Positions 598 through 26,430 of a stretch of DNA of 36,752 nucleotides are shown piece by piece (position 1 is the stretch's first letter; each line of letters begins with the position of its first letter). The notes under the pieces were generated by a model. The model was not told the DNA's origin and made no database searches. It was given only the letters and a program-made list of their open reading frames with translations. The stretch is from positions 1 to 36,752 of the forward strand of contig JBGTEH010000028.1 of assembly GCA_041747915.1 (NCBI GenBank), written 5' to 3'. Made by a program: the position numbers and the translations under genes. Origin of the DNA: Ilumatobacteraceae bacterium (GTDB taxonomy: Bacteria > Actinomycetota > Acidimicrobiia > Acidimicrobiales > Ilumatobacteraceae).

Positions 598-1287
598 TCA
601 CGTTGCAGCCAGTGCCGAACGGGTGAGGGCGAGGAGGTCGGTCAGCGTCCGGCCCGGCTTGCCCAACACCGTCGGCGTTCCTGATCGGCGCAACCGATCG
701 GCGGTCTCGACGGCGAGCTCCATCGTCTCGGGGTTGGTCGACGAGAGCACGGCGACATCGATCTCGTGCTCGTCACAGAAGCGGAGGATTTCGTCCGCCG
801 GCATGTTTGCACCGAGGTGCTCGACGGCCCCGTTGTCGGCCCGCAGCACGACCGATGCCATCGAGGTCGGTAACGAGTGAAAGTCGCCGGCGACGGCTGC
901 CACCATCACCGTGCCCCGCCTGCGGCCCCGCGGGTTCGGTGCCAACTCCCCGAACAGCCGCTCGACGATCGTGGTGCCTTCGTCGACGAGGCCGAGCGAG
1001 ATCTGACGCACCAGCGCCTCGTCGCCGCTGACCAGCGCATCGTGAACTCGATCGGATGCACGCTCGATGCGTTTGGGTGTCGGCGACGTCGGAATGCGCG
1101 GCGTCGATCGTCGCGTGGCGAACTCGACGATGTCGCTGCGATCGATCACGTAGCGGCCATCGATGAACTGTGCAGGCAGCCTGCCGGTGCGCACCCATCG
1201 ATACGCAGTCTGGTAGTGGACCCCGAGCTCCGTCGCGGCCTCCCGCAGATCGACGTGCCGCAGATCGGCGTCCTGGTCTTCGCGCAC
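598..1287 (-). CDS. transcriptional regulator with an excisionase/MerR-superfamily HTH and a cobalamin(B12)-binding-like domain (CarH/LitR-like architecture)
   Basis: 229 aa with a GTG start. The N-terminus 'LREAATELGVHYQTAYRWVRTGRLPAQFIDGRYVIDRSDIVEF' is an excisionase-type HTH. The C-terminus 'VMVAAVAGDFHSLPTSMASVVLRADNGAVEHLGANMPADEILRFCDEHEIDVAVLSS...TVLGKPG' resembles the Rossmann-like B12-binding domain. It has a DxH loop (here DFHSLP instead of DxHxxG), an LGAN.P segment and an LSS segment. Confidence 0.6.
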   Translation of the reverse strand: MREDQDADLRHVDLREAATELGVHYQTAYRWVRTGRLPAQFIDGRYVIDRSDIVEFATRRSTPRIPTSPTPKRIERASDRVHDALVSGDEALVRQISLGLVDEGTTIVERLFGELAPNPRGRRRGTVMVAAVAGDFHSLPTSMASVVLRADNGAVEHLGANMPADEILRFCDEHEIDVAVLSSTNPETMELAVETADRLRRSGTPTVLGKPGRTLTDLLALTRSALAAT

Positions 1288-1401: not shown

Positions 1402-2220
1402 ATGGATCTCGTTCTGAGCGAAAACCAGTTCAACCTGGTGTACAACTCATTTTCGTTCGTCATTGCGTGCATGGGTGCGTCATTCCTCTTCTTCCTGCTC
1501 GTCAGGTCGAAGGTCGCACCCCGCCACCGCATGGCAGTCACGCTGTCCACGCTTGTCGTGGCAATTGCGCTGTATCACTACGCACGGATCTTCGATTCGT
1601 TCTCCAGCGCCTTCGATTTCGTCGACGGCGACTACATCCAGACGGGCGCACCCTTCAACGAGGGCTACCGCTACGTGGACTGGCTCCTGACGGTTCCGTT
1701 GCTGCTGGCGGAGCTGGTGGTGGTGCTCAAACTCAACAAGAGCACCACCCGCAGCCTGCTGGTTCGACTGACCACCGCTGCAATCGCCATGATCCTGCTC
1801 GGATGGCCTGGCGAGCTGGCTGAGCCTGGCTCCGACGCAAGGATGCTGTGGGGTATCGCCTCCACGATTCCGTTCCTCTACATCCTCTACGTGCTGTTCG
1901 TCGAGCTCGGCAAGTCGCTGGATCGTCAGAGCCCGCAGGTGCGCAAGCTCGTCGACGGGCTGCGGTACATCATCCTGGCGACCTGGGGTATCTACCCACT
2001 GGCGTACATCGCTCCGAGCGTGATCGACAACGAGGCGACCGCAGAGGTCGTGCGGCAGGTCGGCTACTCGATCGGCGACGTGCTGGCCAAGCCACTGTTC
2101 GGCCTGCTCGTGCTGTCGATCGCTCTCTCCAAGTCACGGGCCGACGGCTACGGACCCGCCATGGACGAGGACCCTGCGCTGCTCGTCCCCGACGACGCCA
2201 GCGCCCTCGCCAACACCTGA
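1402..2220 (+). CDS. microbial type-1 rhodopsin, proton-pump type (proteorhodopsin/xanthorhodopsin/actinorhodopsin-like clade)
   Basis: 272 aa with about 7 hydrophobic helices. Helix C 'RYVDWLLTVPLLLAE' gives D93/T97/E104 (DTE motif), with L101 at the spectral-tuning position. H59 sits in 'LYHYARI'. Helix G 'GDVLAKPLFG' gives D226 and the Schiff-base Lys K230 (codon 2089-2091). An AAGGAG RBS lies at 1391-1396. Confidence 0.9.
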   Translation: MDLVLSENQFNLVYNSFSFVIACMGASFLFFLLVRSKVAPRHRMAVTLSTLVVAIALYHYARIFDSFSSAFDFVDGDYIQTGAPFNEGYRYVDWLLTVPLLLAELVVVLKLNKSTTRSLLVRLTTAAIAMILLGWPGELAEPGSDARMLWGIASTIPFLYILYVLFVELGKSLDRQSPQVRKLVDGLRYIILATWGIYPLAYIAPSVIDNEATAEVVRQVGYSIGDVLAKPLFGLLVLSIALSKSRADGYGPAMDEDPALLVPDDASALANT

Positions 2221-6997: not shown

Positions 6998-8245
6998 TCA
7001 GCGTCCGGAGCTCGGCGCGGGTCCACCGGTGCCGGCGAACTCCGCCGGTGCCTCGTGGCCGAGGAAGATGCGCCCGAGCTCGCCGTACAGCGGATGGGCC
7101 ACCCACCGGTGAGTGGCGCATCCGTGTGCGTCACGCAGCTTGCGTTCCAGCGGGCTGTCCATACGCATGGCGGACGTTCCGGCGGCGTTGTGGATCGAGT
7201 CGACGACGTGCATCGACGCGTTCGCGGCGTGGGTGCAGGCGAGCCGGGCGATCTGGGTGCGCTCTGCGGAAGGGGCGTCGCGTCCGGCCCACAGTTCGTC
7301 TTCCACCTCGCCCATCGCCTCGAAGAGAAACGCTCGGGCGGCTCGCAGGTTGGCCTCGCCCTCGCCCATTCGTTGCTGTGCGATCGGACGGTCGCGCAAC
7401 GGCGTGCTCGAGAGCATCGGTGTCTTGGAGTTGGCCAGCGTGGCGAATTCGTCGAGTGCCCCGCGGGCGACGCCGATGGCGCATGCCGCCTTGTTGTAGG
7501 CGAGGCGCAGCGGTACCGGGATGCGGTACACGGGGTTCTCGTACAGCGGTGGGACCGTCACGAGGTCGACGCCGGCGAACCGCTCGGGCACGATCCCTCC
7601 GGCGGTGACGACGTCGTGGCTGCCCGAGCCGCGCAGCCCGGCGACGTCCCATGTGTCGACGATGTCCCACTGGTCGCGATGCAGGAACCACAACTTCACC
7701 GTTGGCGCTCCGTCGGTGAGGCGCATGTCGTCGCCGTCGAACACGGGAGCGACGATGAAGCACCACGTCGCGTTGTGACACCCACTGATGAACGTCGCAT
7801 GTCCATGGACGCGGAAGCTGCCGTCGGGCTGGGCAACCGCGCGAGATGGTGTGGTGCCGGGCCCGCCGCCACCGCACATGATCACCCGTGGATCAGCGAG
7901 GTATATCTCCTCGGCCAGCTCCATTGCCATGCCACCGGCGGCCATCGCGTTGATCTCCGAGCCGAGCATCACGTTCCAACCGACCGAGCCGTCGATCGCC
8001 GAAATGGCCTCGATCACCTCGATCGTCTGGCCGACGGTGGCATCCTCCCCGCCGAGTTCGCGGGGAATCGTGAAGCGGAAGAGCCCGGCGTCGATCAGCG
8101 CGTCGATCACGAACGTGGGGCAGCGGCGCAACTGTTGCGCTTCGTCGCCGCCGTCGCGAATTGTGTCGGCGAGACTGGCGACCCTGTCGAGCAGCCCGAC
8201 CTCCGACGCCGTCGTCGGCACTCCTGCATCACTGACGATCGCCAT
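6998..8245 (-). CDS. acyl-CoA dehydrogenase family protein (ACAD type-2 / group-D flavin monooxygenase-like)
   Basis: 415 aa with an ATG start. It has the ACAD three-domain layout, including 'DVAGLRGSGSHD'. It is the first gene of a three-gene operon with the two hotdog genes. Confidence 0.8.
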   Translation of the reverse strand: MAIVSDAGVPTTASEVGLLDRVASLADTIRDGGDEAQQLRRCPTFVIDALIDAGLFRFTIPRELGGEDATVGQTIEVIEAISAIDGSVGWNVMLGSEINAMAAGGMAMELAEEIYLADPRVIMCGGGGPGTTPSRAVAQPDGSFRVHGHATFISGCHNATWCFIVAPVFDGDDMRLTDGAPTVKLWFLHRDQWDIVDTWDVAGLRGSGSHDVVTAGGIVPERFAGVDLVTVPPLYENPVYRIPVPLRLAYNKAACAIGVARGALDEFATLANSKTPMLSSTPLRDRPIAQQRMGEGEANLRAARAFLFEAMGEVEDELWAGRDAPSAERTQIARLACTHAANASMHVVDSIHNAAGTSAMRMDSPLERKLRDAHGCATHRWVAHPLYGELGRIFLGHEAPAEFAGTGGPAPSSGR

Positions 8246-13987: not shown

Positions 13988-14569
13988 TCAGTCTTCGGGT
14001 CGTTCGATGAACGACTGCTTCAGACGCCACGAACTATTCGGGTAGCGCTGCTGCAACCGTTGCCAATTGTCGATCAGGTCCGGCGCCTCGTGCGAGGCCC
14101 GATACGCCGTCACGGCAGTGAAGTATGCGGCCTCCGGGGCCACGAAGCTGGTCGGGAACCGGCGCAGAACATCACGGTACGCCTCAGCCGCGTCAGTGTC
14201 ACGGCCTGACCGCAGCAAACCGTGAGCGCGGGCGGCGAGCAGCTGAGGGAGAAACTCTGTCGGCGGCAGATAGCCATTCCACCGGTACAACTCGACGCCG
14301 TCGCCGTCCAGAACGCGCAGATCCGGCGTCCACACCTGACGGAACCGTGCAACGGTCGCCGCCGTTTCATCGCTGCCGTCCTGCGTGTCGATCTGAACCG
14401 GTTCGAAGAACTCACCGACCGCGTGGACAACTCCCTGATCTGGATACGTCACGGCATCCAGTTCGGCGCAGCCACCTCAAGTGGGGGAGAAGAAATCAAC
14501 CAGAACAAGACGTCCGGACTCCTTCGCGCTCGCTGTTGCAATATCGACCGACTTCAGCCATTGGATCAT
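13988..14569 (-). CDS. thioredoxin-fold (Thioredoxin_7-like) protein with an in-frame TGA at the CxxC position; candidate selenoprotein (alternatively a nonsense-disrupted gene)
   Basis: ATG at 14569 is preceded by a GGGAG RBS. Translation gives MIQWLKSVDIATASAKESGRLVLVDFFSPT-[TGA 14477-14479]-GGCAELDAVTYPDQGVVHAV... and runs in frame into the track ORF 13988..14452. The N-terminal 30 codons look like the canonical start of this family, and the TGA sits where the first Cys of CxxC is expected. Confidence 0.55.
14440..14461 (-). other. hairpin 15 nt downstream of the in-frame UGA (candidate bacterial SECIS-like element)
   Basis: On the minus strand, CUGGAUGC-CGUGAC-GUAUCCAG forms an 8-bp stem (one G-U pair) with a 6-nt loop containing GU. 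The GUG in the loop is the 'start codon' used by the ORF track. Confidence 0.35.
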
Positions 14570-14654
14570 CGTGTACTCCCATCACATAGTGCGGTCTACG
14601 GCCTCTACCCACCCGCACGTCACTCAAACACGGCCCATCTCGTCGGTCGTCGGT

Positions 14655-18947: not shown

Positions 18948-21848
18948 TCACAGTGCCGATTGAGCGAATCGATCGAACGCGGCCGTCGCCTCCTGGGCGG
19001 CGGCCGCTTCGTCGAGTTCGGCGCCGCGGGCGAACTCCGCATCGAACACGTCGCGACCGGTTCGCTGTTCGAGTTCGGTGCGCATCGATTCGAGTCGAGC
19101 CACGTCGTCGCCGAACACGTCGTGGCCGGCACCGGGCGACACCACTGCGCCCAACAGTCGAACCGCTGCGATCGTCTCGTGGGCCTGCATCAGCAAGTTG
19201 ACCACGGAACGCATCCCGGTCCAGAACGGCGATTGCATCCCGGCACGCAACCACATCGGCAACAACCAGCGATAGTTCGCGATGGCCGATGTGAGGTCGC
19301 TCGAGCGCACATCCAGCGAGGCGAGCGAAGCGCCGGCGATGCCCTCGAGGAACGTCGACCCTCCCGCTCGCGCCAGTGCAACCGCCCGCTCCAAGTGCTG
19401 ACGGGCGAGATGAGCGTCAGCGTCGAGACGACACTCACCTGACGCATACTGGCACCACGAGTGAGCGATGGCAGCTCGCTCACCGTTCATGGCGGCCACC
19501 ATCGCGTCCGCGACGGCGACGACATCTCGACGATGCACGTAGGCCATGCAGATCACCAATGTGCCGTACGTCTCGGTGCGGCGGATGACGTCGTCGACGA
19601 CCCCTGGCAACCGCATGGCCTGTTCCAGCCGCTCGATCGCCCGGTCGAGCTCACCGTGGGCGAGATCTTCCGTGGTTTGGGCGCTGAGGAGCTCATAGGT
19701 CGGCATGAGGTTCCGACGCTCGCAGAACTGCTCCGCCAGCGACAGCAATCGACGCGTATCGTCGAGTGAGCTCTGCTTCCACGCTCCCAACCCGGCGATC
19801 GCGTAGGCATCGACGGTCAGAACGTGATCGACGTGTGCGCCCGCCGCCGCAGCGTCCTCGCACCATCTGACGAGTTCGATGCTCACACTGTTGAACGCGA
19901 GGTCGCGCAGCGACACCACCGTGCGAAGAACGGTGTCGGCGTCGTTGGCCGCGAGGCCGACTTCGATCGCGCGTCGGAAGTCGGCCATGCGGGCGATGTA
20001 CCCGTCGATCGGTGCCGAATCGCTGGCCGTGCGCAGGTCCGCCCGCAACGCCTCGGCCACGTCGCGCATCCGAAGCGAGAGGCGAGACAAGAAGCCGCGT
20101 CGTTCGATGTCATCGGTTTGCTCCACGGCGAATCGGCGGACGACGTGGAGCAGAGCGAGGCGCTCACCGTCACGCTGTGCCATCGAACGTTCAACGAGGA
20201 TCGACATCGTGTCGATCGCAGTCGAACGGTCGATCTCCATCACCGCAGCGACATCAGTTGCGGCGAACCGTGACGAAAACGTCGCCGCGGCCCGCAGCGC
20301 CCGTTTCGCTCGCTCGTCGAGGAGGTCGTATGACCAACTCAACGCGGCGTCGACCGAGCGATGGCGATCGACGGTCCGTCGACCACCGCGCAAGACCGCA
20401 ATACTCTCCTCGACGCCTTCGAGCACCTCGCGCGTGGTCAGTGCTTGCAAGCGTGCCGCCGCGAGTTCCAAGGCGAGGGGCAGGCCGTCCAGACGACCAG
20501 CGAGCTCATCGAGTTGCTCGAGTTCGTCGCCGTCAGGTGCCCGGCCGGTCACTGAAACCATCCGGTCGATCAAGAGACGGGTCGCCGGCGACGCAGTCCC
20601 GGCGGTGAGCGAAAGTGGTGGGACTGTGACCAGACGTTCGCCGTCGACGGCGAGCCGCTCTCGGCTGGTGGCGAGCACGACGACGTGGTCGGTCATCTCG
20701 ACGAGTCGCTCGGCGAGTGCCGCCGATTGATCGAGCACGTGCTCGCAGTTGTCGAGAACAACGAGGCAACGCTCGTGGCGCAATACCTCGACCAGGCGGT
20801 CGAGGTCTGGCTGATTGGTCCTGCTCTCCACCGCGGCCGCAGCGATCACGACATCGACCACCGTCAGATTCGTCGCCGTCGTCAGATCGCAGAACACGAC
20901 CTCTTCCAAGCCGGTGCCGTCGAGACGATGTGCGATTTCGGTTGCCAGGCGAGTCTTGCCGACGCCACCCGGCCCGATCAGGGTGATCAACCGGGAATCA
21001 GACAAACCGCGAACTGTTGTCGCAACCAGTTCCTCGCGACCCAAGAACGACGACGTCGGCTGCCGCAAGGCATTCCGAGATCGAGCAGACGGGGCACTCG
21101 GGGGCGGGTCGAGCGTGACGTCATCGGACCCGAGTAGTGCCGCGTGACGTTGTCGGAGTTCGGGCGACGGCGCAACACCGAGCTCGTCGGCGAGCAGACG
21201 CCGGTACGCGTCGTAGACGCGCAACGCGTCGGCGCGCCGGCCGAGCGACTCGTAGGAGCGAATGAGCAGGTGTCGTGGGTGCTCGCGCAAGGGCTGGCGC
21301 GACGCAAATGCCTCGATCTCGGCAATGACACCGGCCGCGTCGCCGTGATCCAGCTGCAACTCGAACCGCTCCTCGGTCGCACGGCAGCGGAGTTCCGTCA
21401 GACGGTCGATCTCGACTCGCCCATCGTCGGCGTCGACGAGATCCTCGTACGGATCACCGCGCCACAGCAGCGATGCCTCATCCAGCATCAGCGATGCTCG
21501 CTCAGGGTCCTCGAACCGCAACGCCGTCGCGTCCAGCACCAAACGCTCGAACTGCGCGACGTCAACGCGATCATCAGGCGCCCTCAAGATGTACCCGGGG
21601 GCCCGATACTCGAGATCGAGGTCGCTGATGCGCTGACGAAGTCGAAACACGAGGGATTGCAGTGCAGCCGGATCCGTCCAGGAGTCGTCGTCCCAGACGA
21701 ACTCCACGAGGCGATCCACGGAGACAACCTTTCCCCGATTGAGGAGCAGCGCGCTGAGCAGCCGACGCTGGCGCTGTCCGGTCAGAACGGTCTCCACGCC
21801 GTCGGCATTCGCCACGCGCAACGGGCCCAAGACACCGAACATGGTCAC
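18948..21848 (-). CDS. AfsR/SARP-family regulator: OmpR-type wHTH, BTAD, NB-ARC P-loop ATPase and TPR-like C-terminus
   Basis: The N-terminus is 'MFGVLGPLRV...RQRRLLSALLL'. The BTAD segment reads 'LWRGDPYEDL...ALRVYDAYRRLLADELGVAPSPEL', and the Walker A is 'LIGPGGVGKTRLA'. The start is either GTG 21848 or, perhaps more likely, ATG 21842. Confidence 0.85.
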   Translation of the reverse strand: MTMFGVLGPLRVANADGVETVLTGQRQRRLLSALLLNRGKVVSVDRLVEFVWDDDSWTDPAALQSLVFRLRQRISDLDLEYRAPGYILRAPDDRVDVAQFERLVLDATALRFEDPERASLMLDEASLLWRGDPYEDLVDADDGRVEIDRLTELRCRATEERFELQLDHGDAAGVIAEIEAFASRQPLREHPRHLLIRSYESLGRRADALRVYDAYRRLLADELGVAPSPELRQRHAALLGSDDVTLDPPPSAPSARSRNALRQPTSSFLGREELVATTVRGLSDSRLITLIGPGGVGKTRLATEIAHRLDGTGLEEVVFCDLTTATNLTVVDVVIAAAAVESRTNQPDLDRLVEVLRHERCLVVLDNCEHVLDQSAALAERLVEMTDHVVVLATSRERLAVDGERLVTVPPLSLTAGTASPATRLLIDRMVSVTGRAPDGDELEQLDELAGRLDGLPLALELAAARLQALTTREVLEGVEESIAVLRGGRRTVDRHRSVDAALSWSYDLLDERAKRALRAAATFSSRFAATDVAAVMEIDRSTAIDTMSILVERSMAQRDGERLALLHVVRRFAVEQTDDIERRGFLSRLSLRMRDVAEALRADLRTASDSAPIDGYIARMADFRRAIEVGLAANDADTVLRTVVSLRDLAFNSVSIELVRWCEDAAAAGAHVDHVLTVDAYAIAGLGAWKQSSLDDTRRLLSLAEQFCERRNLMPTYELLSAQTTEDLAHGELDRAIERLEQAMRLPGVVDDVIRRTETYGTLVICMAYVHRRDVVAVADAMVAAMNGERAAIAHSWCQYASGECRLDADAHLARQHLERAVALARAGGSTFLEGIAGASLASLDVRSSDLTSAIANYRWLLPMWLRAGMQSPFWTGMRSVVNLLMQAHETIAAVRLLGAVVSPGAGHDVFGDDVARLESMRTELEQRTGRDVFDAEFARGAELDEAAAAQEATAAFDRFAQSAL

Positions 21849-22509: not shown

Positions 22510-23469
22510 TCAGGCCGAGCGTCGTGCGAGGAGCAGGCCGAAGTCGCCCGCATCGTCGGTGAAGACCTCCGCATCATCGAAACCCGATTCGAACAGCTCG
22601 CCGATCAGGCGTTTCGGGTCGAACTTCGCCGAGATCTCGATCTGGAGTTCCTCGCCGGCCTCCACGACGAGATCGAGATCGAGGCGGTCGATCCGAACCC
22701 GTTCAGGTTCGTTCGCTCGGAGCCGCATGTCGATGCGCTCCTCACCGCCGTCCCACAGCGGGACGTAGGAGAAATTGCCGACGTCGAAGGTTCCATCGAG
22801 TTCGCGATTGATCGCATGCAATGCATTGCGGATGAAGGTGTCAGTGATGCCCTGAGCGTCGTTGTACGCAGCCATGAGTCGGTCGAGCGGCTTGAGCAGA
22901 TCAAAGCCGAGCAGCAGCCAATCCCCGGGATCGAGCACATTCTGCAGCGCGCCGAGAAACGCTGATCGCTCCTCGACGTAGAAGTTTCCGATCGTGCCCC
23001 CGAGCAGCGCCACCAGCCGGATCCCGCCCGCCGGGATCCGGTACAGGTCCAGATTGAAGTCACCGACGAGCGGTTCGACCGTCAGGTCTGCGTACCGACT
23101 CCGGAGCATCGCGGCTGCGGCGTGCAAGGTCTCGGCGCTGACATCGAGCGGCGTGAAGCGTTCGATCGCCCCATGAGCAACGAACGCGTCGAGCAACGTT
23201 CGGGTCTTGTCGCTCGTGCCGGAGCCGAGTTCGATCACCGTTGTCGCACCGGTCCGTTCGGCGATCATCGTCGAGTGCGTGGCCAGGATCTGGCGCTCGG
23301 CCTCGGTCTGGTAGTACTCGGGCAGCCTCGTGATCTGATCGAACAGGTCGCTGCCCCGATCGTCGTACAGCCATCGAGGGGGGACTCGCCGGGGCCGAGC
23401 CCCCAAGCTTCGACGGAGTTCGGCGTGCGCGCCCAATTGCGTCGCGGTGAGGTCGTCGTGGGAGTTCAT
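22510..23469 (-). CDS. egtD: L-histidine N(alpha)-methyltransferase (ergothioneine biosynthesis EgtD)
   Basis: 'PRWLYDDRGSDLFDQITRLPEYYQTEAERQIL...ELGSGTSDKTRTLL' is an EgtD signature. I prefer ATG 23469, which has an AAAGGA RBS, over the track's GTG 23487. Confidence 0.85.
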   Translation of the reverse strand: MNSHDDLTATQLGAHAELRRSLGARPRRVPPRWLYDDRGSDLFDQITRLPEYYQTEAERQILATHSTMIAERTGATTVIELGSGTSDKTRTLLDAFVAHGAIERFTPLDVSAETLHAAAAMLRSRYADLTVEPLVGDFNLDLYRIPAGGIRLVALLGGTIGNFYVEERSAFLGALQNVLDPGDWLLLGFDLLKPLDRLMAAYNDAQGITDTFIRNALHAINRELDGTFDVGNFSYVPLWDGGEERIDMRLRANEPERVRIDRLDLDLVVEAGEELQIEISAKFDPKRLIGELFESGFDDAEVFTDDAGDFGLLLARRSA

Positions 23470-23527
23470 CAGGGGTCCTTTGTTCACGGCGTGAGGCTGA
23501 TTCGATGGTGGTCGCGACCACGCCGAG

Positions 23528-24871
23528 TCATGTCGGTCGGTCGGTGGCGAGGCGCACGCCAGACGAGTGCCATCGCGTGTGCGGATGGAAGAAGTTGCGG
23601 TACGTCGCTCGGGTGTGACCGGGCGGGGTCAACACGCAGCCGCCGCGCACTACCTGCTGGCCTGACATGAACTTGCCGTTGTATTCGCCGATTGCGCCGT
23701 CGGCGATCCGGTATCCCGGGTAGGGCTGATAGGCGGAGGAGGTCCATTCCCAGCAGTCGCCGAACAATTGTCGGAGCTGCCCGGTCGACGCGCCAGCTGA
23801 GCTCGGGTGAAAGGAGAATGTGTCGTCGCCGGTGAGCGCATCCACGCACAGGAAGTTGCCTGCGATGGGCAAGTTGCGCGCAGCGTGTTCCCACTCGTAT
23901 TCAGTCGGGAGCCGCGCCCCGGCCCAGGTGGCAAATGCGTCAGCCTCGTAGTGCGAGATGTGGACAACTGGCTCGAACGGATCGACCGGCCGGACACCAG
24001 TCAGGGTGTGCAGCAACCAGCGCTCCGGTTCATCGGGGTCTCGACGCCAGTACTCGGGCGCCGTCCATTGTTCGGCTTGTGCTCGGTACCACCCGTCGGA
24101 CTTCCACAGCTCGGGGCGCTGGTAGCCACCGTCGGCGATGAAGGCCTCCCACTCGATCGTCGTCACCAACCGGTCGGCCAACGCAAAGTCGTAGAGGCGC
24201 ACTTCGTGTCGCGGTGACTCGTTGTCCCAACTGAACCGGTCGGCAGTCGGGTCCACTCCGATCTCGACGCAACCGCCGTCGAACTCGATCCATCCCAGCG
24301 GCCCCGAGTCGTGCCCTACGGCGACCTGACGGTCGACGTAGGAAGGGCCAACCGCCGGATTCAGCGACAGTGCGTGCTTGATGTCCATGAGGAGCAACTC
24401 CTGGTGCTGCTCCTCATGATGGGTGCCGAGCAGAACGATCTCGATGACGCGTCGGGCCTCGGCCGGCTCGACGTCCGAGAGGTTCGTGAGCAGCCCGACA
24501 ACTTCGGCGTCCACCGATGATCGGTACTGGGCAACCTCAGCAATCGTCGGACGTGTGACCATCCCCCGGTGGGGTCGTGGATGTCGAGCGCCGACTGCGT
24601 CGTAGTAACTGTTGTACAGAAAGCGGTACTCGGGTCGATCCCACATGCGACCGCTGGTGCCGTCGACACCGAGGACGAACTCGGCGAAGAACCACGTCGT
24701 ATGTGCGCGATGCCATTTGGTCGGGCTGGTGTCCGGCATCGACTGGATCATCTGGTCTTCTGCCGACAACGGCGCAGCGAGGCGCTCAGTACGCGCGCGG
24801 ACGTCCTCGAATCGCTTGCGCAGCGCGCTGACCTGATCGACATCGACGCCTGAGCGAACGGTGTGGGGCAC
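23528..24871 (-). CDS. egtB: ergothioneine biosynthesis sulfoxide synthase EgtB (DinB_2 + FGE-sulfatase domains)
   Basis: The DinB-like domain reads 'SMPDTSPTKWHRAHTTWFFAEF', and the FGE-type C-terminus includes 'GDCWEWTSSAY...RGGC'. I chose GTG 24871, which has an AAGGA RBS. The track's extension to 25054 overlaps the VOC gene. Confidence 0.85.
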   Translation of the reverse strand: MPHTVRSGVDVDQVSALRKRFEDVRARTERLAAPLSAEDQMIQSMPDTSPTKWHRAHTTWFFAEFVLGVDGTSGRMWDRPEYRFLYNSYYDAVGARHPRPHRGMVTRPTIAEVAQYRSSVDAEVVGLLTNLSDVEPAEARRVIEIVLLGTHHEEQHQELLLMDIKHALSLNPAVGPSYVDRQVAVGHDSGPLGWIEFDGGCVEIGVDPTADRFSWDNESPRHEVRLYDFALADRLVTTIEWEAFIADGGYQRPELWKSDGWYRAQAEQWTAPEYWRRDPDEPERWLLHTLTGVRPVDPFEPVVHISHYEADAFATWAGARLPTEYEWEHAARNLPIAGNFLCVDALTGDDTFSFHPSSAGASTGQLRQLFGDCWEWTSSAYQPYPGYRIADGAIGEYNGKFMSGQQVVRGGCVLTPPGHTRATYRNFFHPHTRWHSSGVRLATDRPT

Positions 24872-24986
24872 GGGAGTCCTTGTGGTGTGAGCAGTGGCAG
24901 GGGCGTTTGCACGAAACGCCAGCGACACATACAGACAACCGACGGTCTGAATCGTTACAGGGGTCGATTCTGACCATCGGCCGCGG

Positions 24987-25871
24987 TCACCGCGGTTCGG
25001 AGATTCGCACAACGTGGCCGTCGGGATCGCGTGCGACCAGATCGATCCCACCACCGAGCGATACGTCGACGTCGCTCATCGATGAGAGGAGCCGATCCCG
25101 AATGCCGTCGAGGTCGTTGGTGGTGCATCTCGTCTCGACGTACCAGAGGTCGCCGGGTGCGGTGTTAGCCGGTGGCGACTTCCCAGTTCGCGGCGACAGG
25201 TATTCCAGGAACTCGACCCCGGGCCCCGCCGATCCGCGGAGCCCCGTGATCCGGACTCGTGCGCCTTCGACCCCGCTCAGTGACTCCTGCTCGGTTCCCC
25301 AGTTCTCGCTCTCCCCGGCGACAGAAAGGCCGAGCTCGTCGCGGTAGAACCGCAGGCTCGCGACGGTCGAAGACACGGCGATCGCGGTGTGGTCGATCCC
25401 CAGGACGACTGCCTCGGTGGACTGCCAACGTGCATCACCCTTACCCGGTGGGAAGCTGATCAACTCGAGGGGGTGGCGATCCGGCCCGAGAAAGTAGAAG
25501 GCCTGAATTCCGCCCGCTGCGGGATTCCAATCGGGAAGGCGTTGCGGTGCAGAGCTGATGGCTTCGACTCCGGCGGCACGGAGCCGTCCGCACGCCGCAT
25601 CCATGTCGCTCACCACCAGAGCCACGTGCTGGAACCACAGGTCATTGCTGTGGCTGTCAAGTGGGGCTGGTCGGCCAGGCGGGCGCGACTCGACGAGGGT
25701 GAGGGATTCTCGCCCGAGCCGAACTGTGACGGTTCGCCCGTCCGAGGTGGATTGGTCATTCGCAACGAGCGTGCCGTCGAGGACCTCGATGAAGAACTCG
25801 GCCGCAGCGACGGCGCTACTCACGGAGAACGCGACCGTATCGACCGTGAGGGTCGGGTCCGAAGGACTCAC
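24987..25871 (-). CDS. two-domain VOC (glyoxalase/bleomycin-resistance/extradiol dioxygenase) family protein
   Basis: 294 aa with two repeated VOC modules ('FQHVALVVSDMDAA...', 'IDHTAIAVSSTVASLRFYRDELG'). The start is GTG. Confidence 0.75.
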   Translation of the reverse strand: MSPSDPTLTVDTVAFSVSSAVAAAEFFIEVLDGTLVANDQSTSDGRTVTVRLGRESLTLVESRPPGRPAPLDSHSNDLWFQHVALVVSDMDAACGRLRAAGVEAISSAPQRLPDWNPAAGGIQAFYFLGPDRHPLELISFPPGKGDARWQSTEAVVLGIDHTAIAVSSTVASLRFYRDELGLSVAGESENWGTEQESLSGVEGARVRITGLRGSAGPGVEFLEYLSPRTGKSPPANTAPGDLWYVETRCTTNDLDGIRDRLLSSMSDVDVSLGGGIDLVARDPDGHVVRISEPR

Positions 25872-25890: not shown

Positions 25891-26430
25891 TCATTGCGCA
25901 GCTGTCCACGCCGCTCGGGCTTCCGGCAAGGTCGGGTCGAAGTCCGGCTGGATTCGTTGGTTCAGGTCACGTAGATCGCTCCACAGGTCGTATGGCGAAG
26001 GGCGTCCCCAGAACCAATACCCGACGTAGATCTTGTCGATCACGAGCCCTGGCGCCAGGATCACCGTATGGGGCACGGTCGCCGCGTGATGGGTGTCGGT
26101 GTACTCGCGGATGTCGAGCTCGCTTTGCAGTTCGAGTGCTTCATCGGACAGGTACGTCCATGCTGCGCCCGTCGTGGAACGCAGCTTGAAGATGTCGTGG
26201 AGATCGTTCGGAACGACGGTCACCAACTGGGTGTACCCGACGGCGCACCACTGGTGGAACTCGATCATCGCGCGCTGGTGCTGGCGCTCGCGGGGGCAAT
26301 GCTCACCGCGGCCGAGCAGGAGCACCATCGCATCGTCGCCCTGAAGGGCTGACAATCGGCGCGGCGTTCCGTCCTGGTCGGGCAGCTCGAAGTCGGGAAA
26401 GGTGGTTCCGGGGACAAGGTCGGGTCGCAT
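25891..26430 (-). CDS. redoxin/AhpC-TSA-like thioredoxin-fold protein
   Basis: 179 aa. 'FPDFELPDQDGTPRRLSAL...VLLLGRGEHCPRE' is a peroxiredoxin-like N-terminus with a single CP motif. An AAGGAG RBS is present. Confidence 0.7.
   Translation of the reverse strand: MRPDLVPGTTFPDFELPDQDGTPRRLSALQGDDAMVLLLGRGEHCPRERQHQRAMIEFHQWCAVGYTQLVTVVPNDLHDIFKLRSTTGAAWTYLSDEALELQSELDIREYTDTHHAATVPHTVILAPGLVIDKIYVGYWFWGRPSPYDLWSDLRDLNQRIQPDFDPTLPEARAAWTAAQ

What the first reader, a model, noticed from the sequence alone, without database searches (positions are those of the whole stretch)
13988..14569. In-frame TGA at the first Cys of a thioredoxin-fold CxxC motif: candidate selenoprotein (T-U-G-G-C) truncated by the ORF track
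The ORF track starts this minus-strand gene at a GTG (14452) and gives a 154-aa thioredoxin-family protein with no redox motif.

Reading upstream in the same frame, there is an ATG at 14569 with a GGGAG RBS 6 nt upstream. It is followed by MIQWLKSVDIATASAKESGRLVLVDFFSPT, then TGA (14477-14479), then GGCAELDAVTYPDQ... continuing into the annotated part. That N-terminus looks like the standard start of Thioredoxin_7-type proteins (W..s...A...Ak..gk.vlvdF.s.wCxxC..ld). The TGA falls exactly on the first, nucleophilic Cys of CxxC, giving U-G-G-C.

Fifteen nt after the UGA there is an 8-bp hairpin with a 6-nt loop containing GU (14440-14461). This is the general layout of bacterial SECIS elements.

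The codon style is the same on both sides of the TGA, with unusually many A/T-ending codons for this window. That supports a single gene.

The alternative is a single TGC-to-TGA nonsense mutation, i.e. a pseudogene. No sel genes are visible in this window.
Basis: partly seen in the sequence, partly recalled or inferred. Interest (0 to 1): 0.85.

Follow-up and report, generated by a model that had tools for sequence, protein, structure and literature searches.

The report
Mis-called thioredoxin-like selenoprotein gene
The stop codon inside this gene most likely encodes selenocysteine at the active site of a thioredoxin-like redox protein, and public annotations truncate the same gene in dozens of uncultured bacterial species.

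Summary
On the minus strand, ATG 14569 opens a 193-codon frame with one internal TGA (14477-14479). The TGA sits at the first position of a thioredoxin-fold CxxC motif (T-U-G-G-C).

The pseudogene alternative is excluded. In 74 of 74 informative species-representative genomes from about eight phyla, the aligned codon is TGA, never TAA, TAG or a Cys codon. Protein sequence is conserved on both sides, and substitutions are codon-periodic on both sides. Cys-containing (TGC) homologues also exist.

The hairpin at 14440-14461 meets the published bacterial SECIS criteria. It shows compensatory changes and is more stable than synonymous recoding allows. In one subfamily it decays by synonymous changes in three of four Cys-form loci.

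The protein has a DsbD-gamma/Thioredoxin_7-type domain followed by a TPR-like helical domain. Overall it resembles E. coli CnoX/YbbN.

No member reaches the cut-off of any NCBIfam model. Public records call it a truncated hypothetical, thioredoxin or "TolA-binding" protein.

The Sec machinery of this organism could not be checked, because only one contig is available. I also could not test whether this is the old "thiol:disulfide interchange protein" selenoprotein family. It is a new member of a known kind.

The parts
13988..14569 (-). Full selenoprotein CDS: 193 codons including Sec31, ending in a TGA stop at 13988-13990
   Evidence: Searches give the sequence and translation. One search shows a start codon 30-33 codons upstream of the TGA in 14 of the 15 related loci checked (36 in one). 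One search shows codon-periodic substitutions on both sides of the TGA.
14576..14580 (-). Shine-Dalgarno-like GGGAG, 6 nt before the ATG at 14569
   Evidence: read directly from the sequence. Its function is inferred.
14477..14479 (-). In-frame UGA read as selenocysteine (U31), the nucleophilic position of the UxxC motif
   Evidence: TGA at the aligned codon in 74/74 informative loci and in the window. Cys (TGC) occupies this position in homologues.
14468..14470 (-). TGC codon for Cys34, the resolving cysteine of U-G-G-C
   Evidence: One search shows Cys at this position in all 75 sequences.
14440..14461 (-). SECIS-type hairpin: 8-bp stem (14454-14461 with 14440-14447) and loop CGUGAC (14448-14453). 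The loop contains the GTG (14450-14452) that ORF callers take as the start.
   Evidence: Searches give the fold. One search gives the published criteria. Searches show the window passes all four. Searches show covariation. One search gives z = -2.35 against synonymous recoding.
14246..14563 (-). Thioredoxin-fold domain (residues 3-108) of DsbD-gamma/Thioredoxin_7 type
   Evidence: Pfam. (DsbD C-terminal domain). (model of the Cys homologue; TM 0.74-0.77, normalised to the target, to DsbD-gamma structures).
14321..14332 (-). Invariant W80-T81-P82-D83, at the place of the cis-proline loop of thioredoxin folds
   Evidence: One search shows the columns are invariant. One search shows the motif lies just before strand 84-88 of the model. 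The cis conformation is inferred.
14021..14245 (-). C-terminal TPR-like helical domain (residues 109-183)
   Evidence: TPR_14, TPR_6, TPR_16. (YbgF/CpoB, BamD). (helices 104-184 in the model of the homologue).

Best explanation
Window 13988-14569 (minus strand) is one gene for a 193-residue selenoprotein. Translation starts at ATG 14569.

When the ribosome reaches UGA 14479-14477, the mRNA hairpin 15 nt downstream (14461-14440, apical loop CGUGAC) would recruit SelB carrying Sec-tRNA(Sec). Selenocysteine is then inserted instead of terminating. This step is inferred from the general bacterial mechanism.

Sec31 and Cys34 form a U-G-G-C redox centre at the N-terminus of helix 1 of a DsbD-gamma/Thioredoxin_7-type thioredoxin fold, opposite an invariant W-T-P loop. 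A TPR-like helical domain follows.

The likely chemistry is thiol-disulfide (or sulfenate) exchange. The selenolate attacks a substrate disulfide, and the resulting selenenyl-sulfide is resolved by Cys34. The TPR-like domain probably holds the client or partner protein, as in the Trx-TPR protein CnoX/YbbN.

Most members, including this one, have no signal peptide and are predicted to be cytoplasmic. The three Planctomycetota members whose sequence upstream of the mature start was read (L059, L060, L062) carry a hydrophobic, signal-like N-terminus.

Shown here: gene structure, conservation of the TGA, Sec/Cys pairing, a hairpin under selection, and the fold. Inferred: SelB-dependent decoding, redox chemistry, the role of the TPR domain, and localisation.
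For: 1. The TGA is conserved. It is found at the aligned codon in 74/74 informative loci from GTDB species representatives of Acidimicrobiia and other Actinomycetota, Chloroflexota, Eremiobacterota/Vulcanimicrobiota, Binatia, Planctomycetota, Acidobacteriota, Proteobacteria and Thermodesulfobacteriota. It is never TAA or TAG.

2. The region upstream of the TGA is translated. Its protein sequence is conserved (...LVLLDFFSPT-U-GGC...). Per-site differences at codon positions 1/2/3 are 0.33/0.21/0.55 upstream and 0.30/0.26/0.51 downstream. A start codon lies 30-33 codons upstream in 14 of the 15 loci checked (36 in one), and in six of them an in-frame stop lies within ten codons upstream of it.

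3. Sec/Cys pairs exist. P0033 and P0034 use TGC. Among the 139 of the best 150 cluster representatives (50% identity) that are shorter than 260 aa, 53 are CxxC, 7 are SxxC, and 63-65 are cut off at the motif. 'W' forms in public calls are really TGA.

4. The hairpin behaves like a SECIS.
   - The window hairpin meets all four published bSECIS criteria.
   - In MFE folds, 50/75 sites pass, against 11.6% of control in-frame positions in the same genes.
   - Compensatory pairs are seen: AU:39/GC:15 at columns 23-36, GC:6/CG:5 in a second hairpin class, and 3 of 6 pairs in the RNAalifold consensus.
   - All 63 distinct sequences fold better than synonymous recodings, with mean z of -1.84. The loop codons are biased: GTG 44/57 against 39% background, and ACG 43/46 against 42%.
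   - In the YNNL-U-IGC subfamily, three of four Cys-form loci (two distinct sequences; L082 and L083 are identical over this stretch) have lost the hairpin, L082/L083 purely through synonymous changes and L084 with amino-acid changes as well, while the fourth (L081) keeps it. All three Sec forms keep it.

5. The fold requires the N-terminus. The AF2 model of the Cys homologue has pLDDT 92.5. Strand 1 and helix 1 lie before the mis-called GTG start. The best PDB matches are YbbN/CnoX and DsbD-gamma.

6. TGA is an ordinary stop in these genomes. This gene itself and 8 of the 15 checked homologues end in TGA. A reassigned genetic code is therefore excluded.
Against: - No selA, selB, selD or tRNA-Sec was found in the window or in the flanks of the related loci searched. 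The window is the whole 36.7-kb contig, so this says nothing about the genome.
- There is no protein-level evidence.
- Dinucleotide shuffles of the 63-nt region give only z = -1.2.
- 25 of 75 sites fail my strict reading of the SECIS rules, mostly 6-bp hairpins at about -6.9 kcal/mol.
- RNAalifold finds no consensus when the three hairpin classes are mixed in one alignment.
- The hairpin overlaps the conserved motif L-D-x-V-T-Y-P, so part of its conservation comes from coding constraint.
- The redox function and the role of the TPR domain are inferred from homology and fold only.
Confidence: 0.88

Rival explanations
1. Pseudogene: a single TGC-to-TGA nonsense mutation inactivated an ordinary CxxC thioredoxin-like gene in this organism.
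For: TGC homologues exist, so TGA is one mutation away. No Sec machinery is visible in the window.
Against: The same TGA is present in 74/74 loci from different species and phyla. Both halves evolve under codon-periodic purifying selection. The downstream hairpin is under selection. Independent identical nonsense mutations in dozens of lineages are not credible.
Confidence: 0.01
2. Two products: a 30-codon upstream ORF that ends at the TGA, acting as a leader or regulatory peptide, and a separate 154-aa protein that starts at GTG 14452, as the ORF track and public annotations have it.
For: Gene callers produce exactly this. The hairpin could in principle be a regulatory structure around a start codon.
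Against: The GTG lies in the hairpin loop and has no Shine-Dalgarno sequence. The 154-aa product would lack strand 1, most of helix 1 and the whole redox motif of the thioredoxin fold. The upstream 30 codons align residue for residue with full-length CxxC homologues in the same frame. In 13 of the 57 distinct sequences that have Val at this position the codon is GTC, which is not a start codon, so no start is conserved here.
Confidence: 0.03
3. UGA is read through, but not as selenocysteine. A near-cognate tRNA inserts Trp, Cys or Arg, stimulated by the downstream hairpin and without SelB.
For: A conserved in-frame UGA and a downstream structure are also what programmed read-through would show. 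The Sec machinery is unverified for this genome.
Against: The UGA aligns exactly with the catalytic Cys of homologues, the classic Sec/Cys signature. The hairpin fits the bacterial SECIS distance, loop size and loop-G rules. Trp or Arg at the nucleophilic position would abolish redox activity. Several carrier lineages are documented Sec users: an order of Acidimicrobiia, Dehalococcoidia, and a GrdB/PrdB-like gene with in-frame TGA on the contig of one Cys-form member.
Confidence: 0.06

Closest known systems
'Thiol:disulfide interchange protein' selenoprotein family (Kryukov & Gladyshev 2004). Listed as PF13098, UxxC, representative WP_011366075.1 in PMC13188914 Table 1, and as 'Trx-like 2, cd02953 (DsbD-gamma)' in PMC2398784 Table 2.
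   Same: It has a UxxC motif in a Thioredoxin_2/DsbD-gamma-like thioredoxin fold. PF13098 is also the best Pfam hit for the window protein. The DsbD C-terminal domain is among its best NCBIfam and PDB hits.
   Different: I could not test whether it is the same family, because the representative sequence and the 2004 paper were not obtainable. Neither catalogue entry (domain ID, motif, representative) indicates a TPR-like domain. Neither listing of the 120 best homologues, for the window protein or for the Thermodesulfobacteriota member, carries a Geobacter or selenoprotein name.
E. coli CnoX/YbbN and Salmonella YbbN (PDB 3QOU, 3QDN): a thioredoxin domain followed by a TPR domain
   Same: It has the same two-domain architecture and is the top Foldseek match over the whole length (E = 1e-7, 184-194 aligned columns). 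Some relatives even carry SxxC, and CnoX/YbbN is also an SxxC protein (from my own knowledge, not tested here).
   Different: Sequence identity is only 13-14%, TM is 0.42-0.43 normalised to the query, and rmsd is 9-11 A, so the domain arrangement differs. The TPR part is shorter here. The active site here is a complete UxxC. There is no sequence-level family hit. Chaperone activity is untested.
DsbD gamma domain (PDB 1VRS, 1UC7, 2FWE-H), DsbH (2JU5) and Thermus thermophilus thioredoxin 2LST
   Same: The thioredoxin domain superposes with TM 0.66-0.77 (normalised to the target) and rmsd 2.0-3.0 A. These are also the best sequence-level PDB and NCBIfam hits.
   Different: Those proteins have CxxC, not UxxC. 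DsbD-gamma is a periplasmic domain of a membrane protein. This protein is a soluble, stand-alone protein with an extra TPR-like domain.
NCBIfam selenoprotein models with Thioredoxin_7/DsbD-like domains: TsoB (NF045694), VPGUxxT types 1 and 2 (NF041382, NF041383) and Trx7/PDZ (NF041199)
   Same: They show weak domain-level similarity around the redox motif. Sec lies at or near the equivalent position.
   Different: Scores are 18-59 bits against curated cut-offs of 275-805, for the window protein and for eight divergent family members. Motifs and architectures differ.

Membership tests
Bacterial selenoprotein gene (Sec-UGA plus bSECIS) | In-frame UGA aligned with Cys in homologues (Sec/Cys pair) | tested here: met
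   TGC in P0033 and P0034 and in L081-L084. 53 CxxC representatives.
Bacterial selenoprotein gene (Sec-UGA plus bSECIS) | UGA conserved in orthologues of other species, with coding conservation on both sides | tested here: met
   74/74 loci carry TGA.
Bacterial selenoprotein gene (Sec-UGA plus bSECIS) | Downstream stem-loop meeting the published bSECIS model (PMC13188914 Fig. 2): 3-9 nt loop, 4-16 bp stem, G in the first two loop positions, 16-37 nt from the UGA to the loop, MFE <= -7.5 kcal/mol | tested here: met
   Window: 6-nt loop CGUGAC, 8 bp, 23 nt spacing, -10.2 to -11.4 kcal/mol. Family: 50/75 sites against 11.6% of control positions.
Bacterial selenoprotein gene (Sec-UGA plus bSECIS) | Structure conserved beyond coding constraint (covariation, synonymous-site effects) | tested here: met
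   Searches show compensatory pairs. One search shows all 63 z-scores negative, with codon bias in the loop. One search shows synonymous decay in Cys forms.
Bacterial selenoprotein gene (Sec-UGA plus bSECIS) | selA, selB, selD and tRNA-Sec present in the same genome | not testable with these tools
   None found in the 36.7-kb window or in the locus flanks. The rest of the genome is not available.
Bacterial selenoprotein gene (Sec-UGA plus bSECIS) | Selenium demonstrated in the protein | not testable with these tools
   Needs 75Se labelling or mass spectrometry.
Thioredoxin-fold thiol-disulfide oxidoreductase (Thioredoxin_2/_7, DsbD-gamma-like) | Domain model hit above the curated threshold | tested here: met
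   PF13098 at 44.7 bits and PF13899 at 33.5 bits; cut-off is 27 for both.
Thioredoxin-fold thiol-disulfide oxidoreductase (Thioredoxin_2/_7, DsbD-gamma-like) | C/UxxC at the N-terminus of helix 1, and a conserved proline loop opposite it | tested here: met
   In the model of Cys homologue P0033, the motif is at 34-37 and the helix at 35-44. W-T-P-D is invariant. The cis-peptide is inferred.
Thioredoxin-fold thiol-disulfide oxidoreductase (Thioredoxin_2/_7, DsbD-gamma-like) | Structural superposition on solved family members | tested here: met
   DsbD-gamma: TM 0.74-0.77 normalised to the target, rmsd 2.0-2.7 A.
CnoX/YbbN chaperedoxins | Thioredoxin domain followed by a TPR domain | tested here: met
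   3QOU and 3QDN are the top Foldseek hits.
CnoX/YbbN chaperedoxins | Sequence homology or rigid whole-protein superposition | tested here: not met
   13-14% identity, TM 0.42-0.43 normalised to the query, rmsd 9-11 A. No YbbN-type model among the Pfam or NCBIfam hits.
CnoX/YbbN chaperedoxins | Holdase and redox-protection activity | not testable with these tools
   Biochemical assay needed.
'Thiol:disulfide interchange protein' selenoprotein family (PF13098/cd02953, UxxC) | UxxC in a Thioredoxin_2/DsbD-gamma-like domain | tested here: met
.
'Thiol:disulfide interchange protein' selenoprotein family (PF13098/cd02953, UxxC) | Close sequence relationship to the representative WP_011366075.1 | not tested
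   The sequence was not obtainable. Paper searches failed from then on.
NCBIfam selenoprotein families TsoB, VPGUxxT and Trx7/PDZ | Score at or above the curated cut-off | tested here: not met
   18-59 bits against cut-offs of 275-805, for the window protein and eight divergent relatives.

The most novel reading that the evidence does not exclude
This is a selenoprotein family absent from current catalogues (119 families in PMC13188914, and NCBIfam release 20). It would be a 'seleno Trx-TPR' protein that carries Sec rather than Cys in every species-representative genome retrieved. All these genomes are metagenome-assembled, by their record titles. It is spread across Acidimicrobiia and other Actinomycetota, Chloroflexota, Eremiobacterota, Binatia, Planctomycetota and Acidobacteriota. 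Its SECIS hairpin has been rebuilt in at least three different registers while the UGA stayed fixed. If so, the gene would also be a simple marker of the selenocysteine trait in phyla where it is little documented.
Probability: 0.5. Interest if true: 0.55.

Novelty: new member of a known kind. Interest (0 to 1): 0.45.

Why it matters
UxxC thioredoxin-fold selenoproteins are a well-known kind, so the mechanism is not surprising.

What matters is practical and ecological. This family is large: 757 representatives at 50% identity with E <= 1e-10. About half of its best-scoring representatives are Sec forms. Every public record I saw truncates it to about 150 aa without its active site, or translates the TGA as Trp. 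Functional inference and selenoproteome counts for the metagenome-assembled lineages that carry it, such as Acidimicrobiia, Eremiobacterota, Binatia and Chloroflexota, are biased as a result.

The family also offers a natural experiment on SECIS evolution. It shows three hairpin solutions downstream of one fixed UGA, and decay of the hairpin after Sec-to-Cys replacement.

Tried and rejected
- **Sec machinery.** ARAGORN and Rfam on the window found nothing. ARAGORN on 60 loci found only a tRNA-Gln. tblastn with E. coli SelA, SelB and SelD against the window and the 78 related loci held at that point found nothing. This is uninformative, because only flanks were available.
- **Conserved gene neighbourhood.** The window's neighbours (DJ-1/PfpI, F420 oxidoreductase, hemerythrin and others) have no counterparts next to the gene elsewhere. 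All-against-all clustering of flanking ORFs shows only clade-local synteny. The gene stands alone, so context gives no functional clue.
- **RNAalifold on all 75 post-UGA sequences together.** It gave no consensus. The family uses hairpins in different registers. Split by class, the structure is recovered.
- **Other candidate Sec-UGA sites in the window.** None is convincing.
- **Structure prediction of the window's own conceptual protein.** I used the 50%-identical Cys homologue P0033 instead.
- **Identity with the 2004 'thiol:disulfide interchange protein' family.** The paper is not held. BSepDB supplements are not held. Paper searches and one reading failed with time-outs.
- **Plasmid collection.** tblastn found no match.
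- **Reassigned genetic code.** Rejected: TGA is the normal stop of this gene and of 8 of 15 homologues.
Full report
**1. The observation**

- GGGAG lies at 14580-14576, followed by a 6-nt spacer and ATG at 14569.
- Thirty sense codons follow (MIQWLKSVDIATASAKESGRLVLVDFFSPT), then TGA at 14479-14477, then GGCAELDAVTYPDQ..., running to a TGA stop at 13990-13988.
- The mechanical ORF list holds only the 154-aa piece from GTG 14452.
- With U replaced by C, the 193-aa protein passes the Pfam thresholds for Thioredoxin_2, Thioredoxin_7 and TPR_14.
- The hairpin CUGGAUGC-CGUGAC-GUAUCCAG is at 14461-14440, 15 nt after the UGA.

**2. Pseudogene or recoding**

A search of 5.8 billion proteins with the U-to-C protein gave 236 hits. 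Almost all are called as proteins of about 150 aa covering 78-81% of the query, so they are cut at the same place. Only four are full length. Three of these have Cys at the position and one has 'W'.

A scan of one genome per GTDB species returned 75 loci. They come from Acidimicrobiia and other Actinomycetota, Chloroflexota, Eremiobacterota/Vulcanimicrobiota, Binatia, Planctomycetota, Acidobacteriota, Proteobacteria and Thermodesulfobacteriota. The tblastn matches run to residue 1-2 of the query.

Translating them shows a stop at exactly the aligned position, with conserved sequence on both sides...LVLLDFFSPT*GGCKALDTVTYP.... The codon is TGA in all 74 informative loci. The 75th locus is only a C-terminal fragment.

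A start codon lies 30-33 codons upstream in 14 of the 15 loci examined (36 in one), and in six of them an in-frame stop lies within ten codons upstream of it. Substitutions upstream of the TGA have the same third-position-dominated pattern as those downstream: 0.33/0.21/0.55 against 0.30/0.26/0.51 per site.

A lineage-specific nonsense mutation cannot explain this. TGA is also the ordinary stop of this gene and of 8 of 15 homologues, so a reassigned code is excluded.

**3. Sec/Cys pairs**

- P0033 and P0034 use TGC. The 'W' protein P0042 is encoded with TGA, so it is a gene-caller artefact.
- An exhaustive profile search of 1.84 billion representatives gave 757 hits at E <= 1e-10.
- Of the 139 best representatives shorter than 260 aa, 53 are CxxC, 7 are SxxC, 4 are CxxS, and 63-65 are cut off just before the motif.
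- In the YNNL-x-IGC subfamily, both TGC and TGA forms occur among sequences 62-75% identical to the same query.

**4. The hairpin as a SECIS**

The published bacterial SECIS model requires four things (PMC13188914):
- a 3-9 nt apical loop on a 4-16 bp stem;
- a G in the first two loop positions;
- 16-37 nt between the UGA and the loop;
- MFE <= -7.5 kcal/mol.

The window hairpin has a 6-nt loop CGUGAC, 8 bp, 23 nt of spacing, and -10.2 to -11.4 kcal/mol. Across the family, 50 of 75 distinct sites pass in MFE folds, against 11.6% of control in-frame positions in the same genes. A stricter ungapped version passes 41/75 against 8.6%. Most failures are the same hairpin with 6 bp, at about -6.9 kcal/mol.

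The family uses at least three hairpins in different registers.
- **Class A** is the majority and includes the window: GGAUxC-CGUGAC-GUAUCC.
- **Class B** is an Actinomycetota/Solirubrobacterales clade: GCUGGC-NNNN-GUCAGC inside an outer CGGGG/CCCCG stem.
- **Class C** is the YNNL-U-IGC clade: AACAGCU-GGC-AGCUGUU.

Pair counts support the structures.
- Class A on the full alignment: 76.5% of cells paired, against 26-42% for slid controls. Columns 23-36 show AU:39/GC:15. Here Asp-to-Gly or Pro-to-Ser changes are matched by synonymous TAT-to-TAC changes.
- Class B: 89% paired, against 23-55% for slid controls, with GC:6/CG:5 at one pair.
- RNAalifold on 30 distinct class A sequences predicts the 6-bp core on its own, with compensatory changes at 3 of 6 pairs. 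On the mixed alignment it finds nothing.

To separate RNA constraint from coding constraint, I recoded each sequence synonymously, using each gene's own codon usage. All 63 distinct sequences fold better than their recodings, with mean z of -1.84; the window gives -2.35. The two loop codons are strongly biased: GTG 44/57 against 39% background, and ACG 43/46 against 42%.

In class C, the three Sec forms keep the hairpin. Three of the four Cys-form loci, which amount to two distinct sequences because L082 and L083 are identical over this stretch, have lost it. L082/L083 lost it purely through synonymous changes (CAA CAG CTG to CAG CAA TTG); L084 also differs in amino acids. The fourth Cys form, L081, keeps the hairpin. 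The sample is small, but the result is the one expected if the hairpin is needed only when the codon is UGA.

**5. What the protein is**

- NCBIfam gives only weak, domain-level hits: the DsbD C-terminal domain, TsoB, VPGUxxT and YbgF.
- PDB sequence search gives T. thermophilus thioredoxin 2LST and DsbD-gamma for residues 5-119, and BamD and YbgF/CpoB for residues 109-183.
- An AlphaFold2 model of the 50%-identical Cys homologue P0033 is confident (pLDDT 92.5). It shows a thioredoxin fold with the CxxC at the start of helix 1, followed by a bundle of TPR-like helices at 104-184.
- Strand 1 and helix 1 lie before the mis-called GTG start, so the annotated 154-aa product could not form the fold.
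- The best Foldseek matches are E. coli YbbN/CnoX and Salmonella YbbN over the whole length. These have the same Trx-TPR architecture but only 13-14% identity and rmsd of 9-11 A. For the thioredoxin domain, the best matches are DsbD-gamma, DsbH and 2LST, with TM 0.66-0.77 normalised to the target.
- W80-T81-P82-D83 is invariant at the place of the cis-proline loop.
- There is no signal peptide in the window protein. Three Planctomycetota members (L059, L060, L062) have a hydrophobic, signal-like N-terminus.
- There is no conserved neighbourhood.

My reading, by inference, is a stand-alone selenol/thiol oxidoreductase whose TPR-like domain binds clients or a partner.

**6. Sec-decoding capacity**

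The window is the entire contig (one search lists a longest contig of 36,752 bp). It contains ordinary Acidimicrobiia-like chromosomal genes and no sel genes.

Indirect support exists.
- An order of Acidimicrobiia (Actinomarinales) is reported to carry selA, selB, selC and selD universally (bioRxiv 10.64898/2026.04.03.716425).
- Dehalococcoidia are among the richest selenoproteomes (PMC13326102).
- The contig of one Cys-form member carries a GrdB/PrdB-like gene with an in-frame TGA.

The decisive test, finding tRNA-Sec, selA and selB in carriers' genomes, could not be run.

**7. Is it known?**

The 2026 catalogue of 119 prokaryotic selenoprotein families lists no family by a Trx-TPR name or domain ID (PMC13188914 Table 1). 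[quoted passage not shown] The same family appears as 'Trx-like 2, cd02953 DsbD-gamma' in the GOS study (PMC2398784). I could not obtain that sequence or the 2004 paper, so identity with that family is open.

Neither the window protein nor eight divergent relatives reach the curated cut-off of any NCBIfam model. The best score is 59 bits against a cut-off of 805. Public records name family members 'hypothetical protein', 'thioredoxin', 'TolA-binding protein' or 'TPR repeat protein'. All are truncated or have W for the TGA.

**8. Verdict**

This is a genuine, widely conserved Sec-UGA with a SECIS-type hairpin, in a thioredoxin-fold UxxC protein that annotation pipelines truncate.

The kind is well known. 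This family may or may not already be in the catalogues under a generic name. I file it as a new member of a known kind, of moderate interest.

Noticed in passing
window 1402-2220 (+) and 598-1287 (-): A bacteriorhodopsin-like gene (Pfam Bac_rhodopsin, 136 bits) is followed by a very strong hairpin right after its TGA stop (-40 kcal/mol). It is divergently adjacent to an HTH_17 + B12-binding protein, which by my own knowledge resembles CarH/LitR-type light-responsive regulators.
   Followed up: no
window 22510-23487 (-) and 23528-25054 (-): Adjacent genes carry Methyltransf_33 (histidine-specific methyltransferase, 317 bits) and DinB_2 + FGE-sulfatase domains. By my own knowledge this is the EgtD-EgtB pair of ergothioneine biosynthesis. 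An AhpC/TSA peroxiredoxin-like gene lies nearby at 25891-26430.
   Followed up: no
L081:6723-7490, TGA at 7200-7202: On the contig of a Cys-form family member, a GrdB/PrdB-like ORF (Pfam GRDB, weak) is split into two public gene calls by an in-frame TGA in the context LVPC-TGA-PLC. It is probably another mis-called selenoprotein.
   Followed up: partly
L078:324-914, L085:291-884, L086:602-1177: Public JGI and ENA gene calls on short contigs translate the TGA as Trp (P0042, P0277, P0290). This gives full-length proteins with a false WxxC motif, probably because an alternative code was chosen for short contigs.
   Followed up: yes
L025 and L054 (both on contig CAXSGY010000031.1, at its two ends): There are two copies of the gene in one Pyrinomonadaceae contig. 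The L054 copy has an extra in-frame stop and unrelated sequence in its N-terminal part (…KTN*FYWIFFDQT*PGC…). It could be a decaying paralogue or a contig-end artefact.
   Followed up: no
window 18948-21848 (-): A 966-aa regulator with Trans_reg_C, BTAD and NB-ARC/STAND NTPase domains, which by my own knowledge resembles the AfsR/SARP-like type.
   Followed up: no
P0139, P0149, P0161, P0196, P0201, P0205, P0220, P0242 (representative search): Longer proteins of 354-866 aa contain one to several copies of the same Thioredoxin_7-like domain with WCxxC motifs. The domain therefore also occurs in multi-domain contexts.
   Followed up: no
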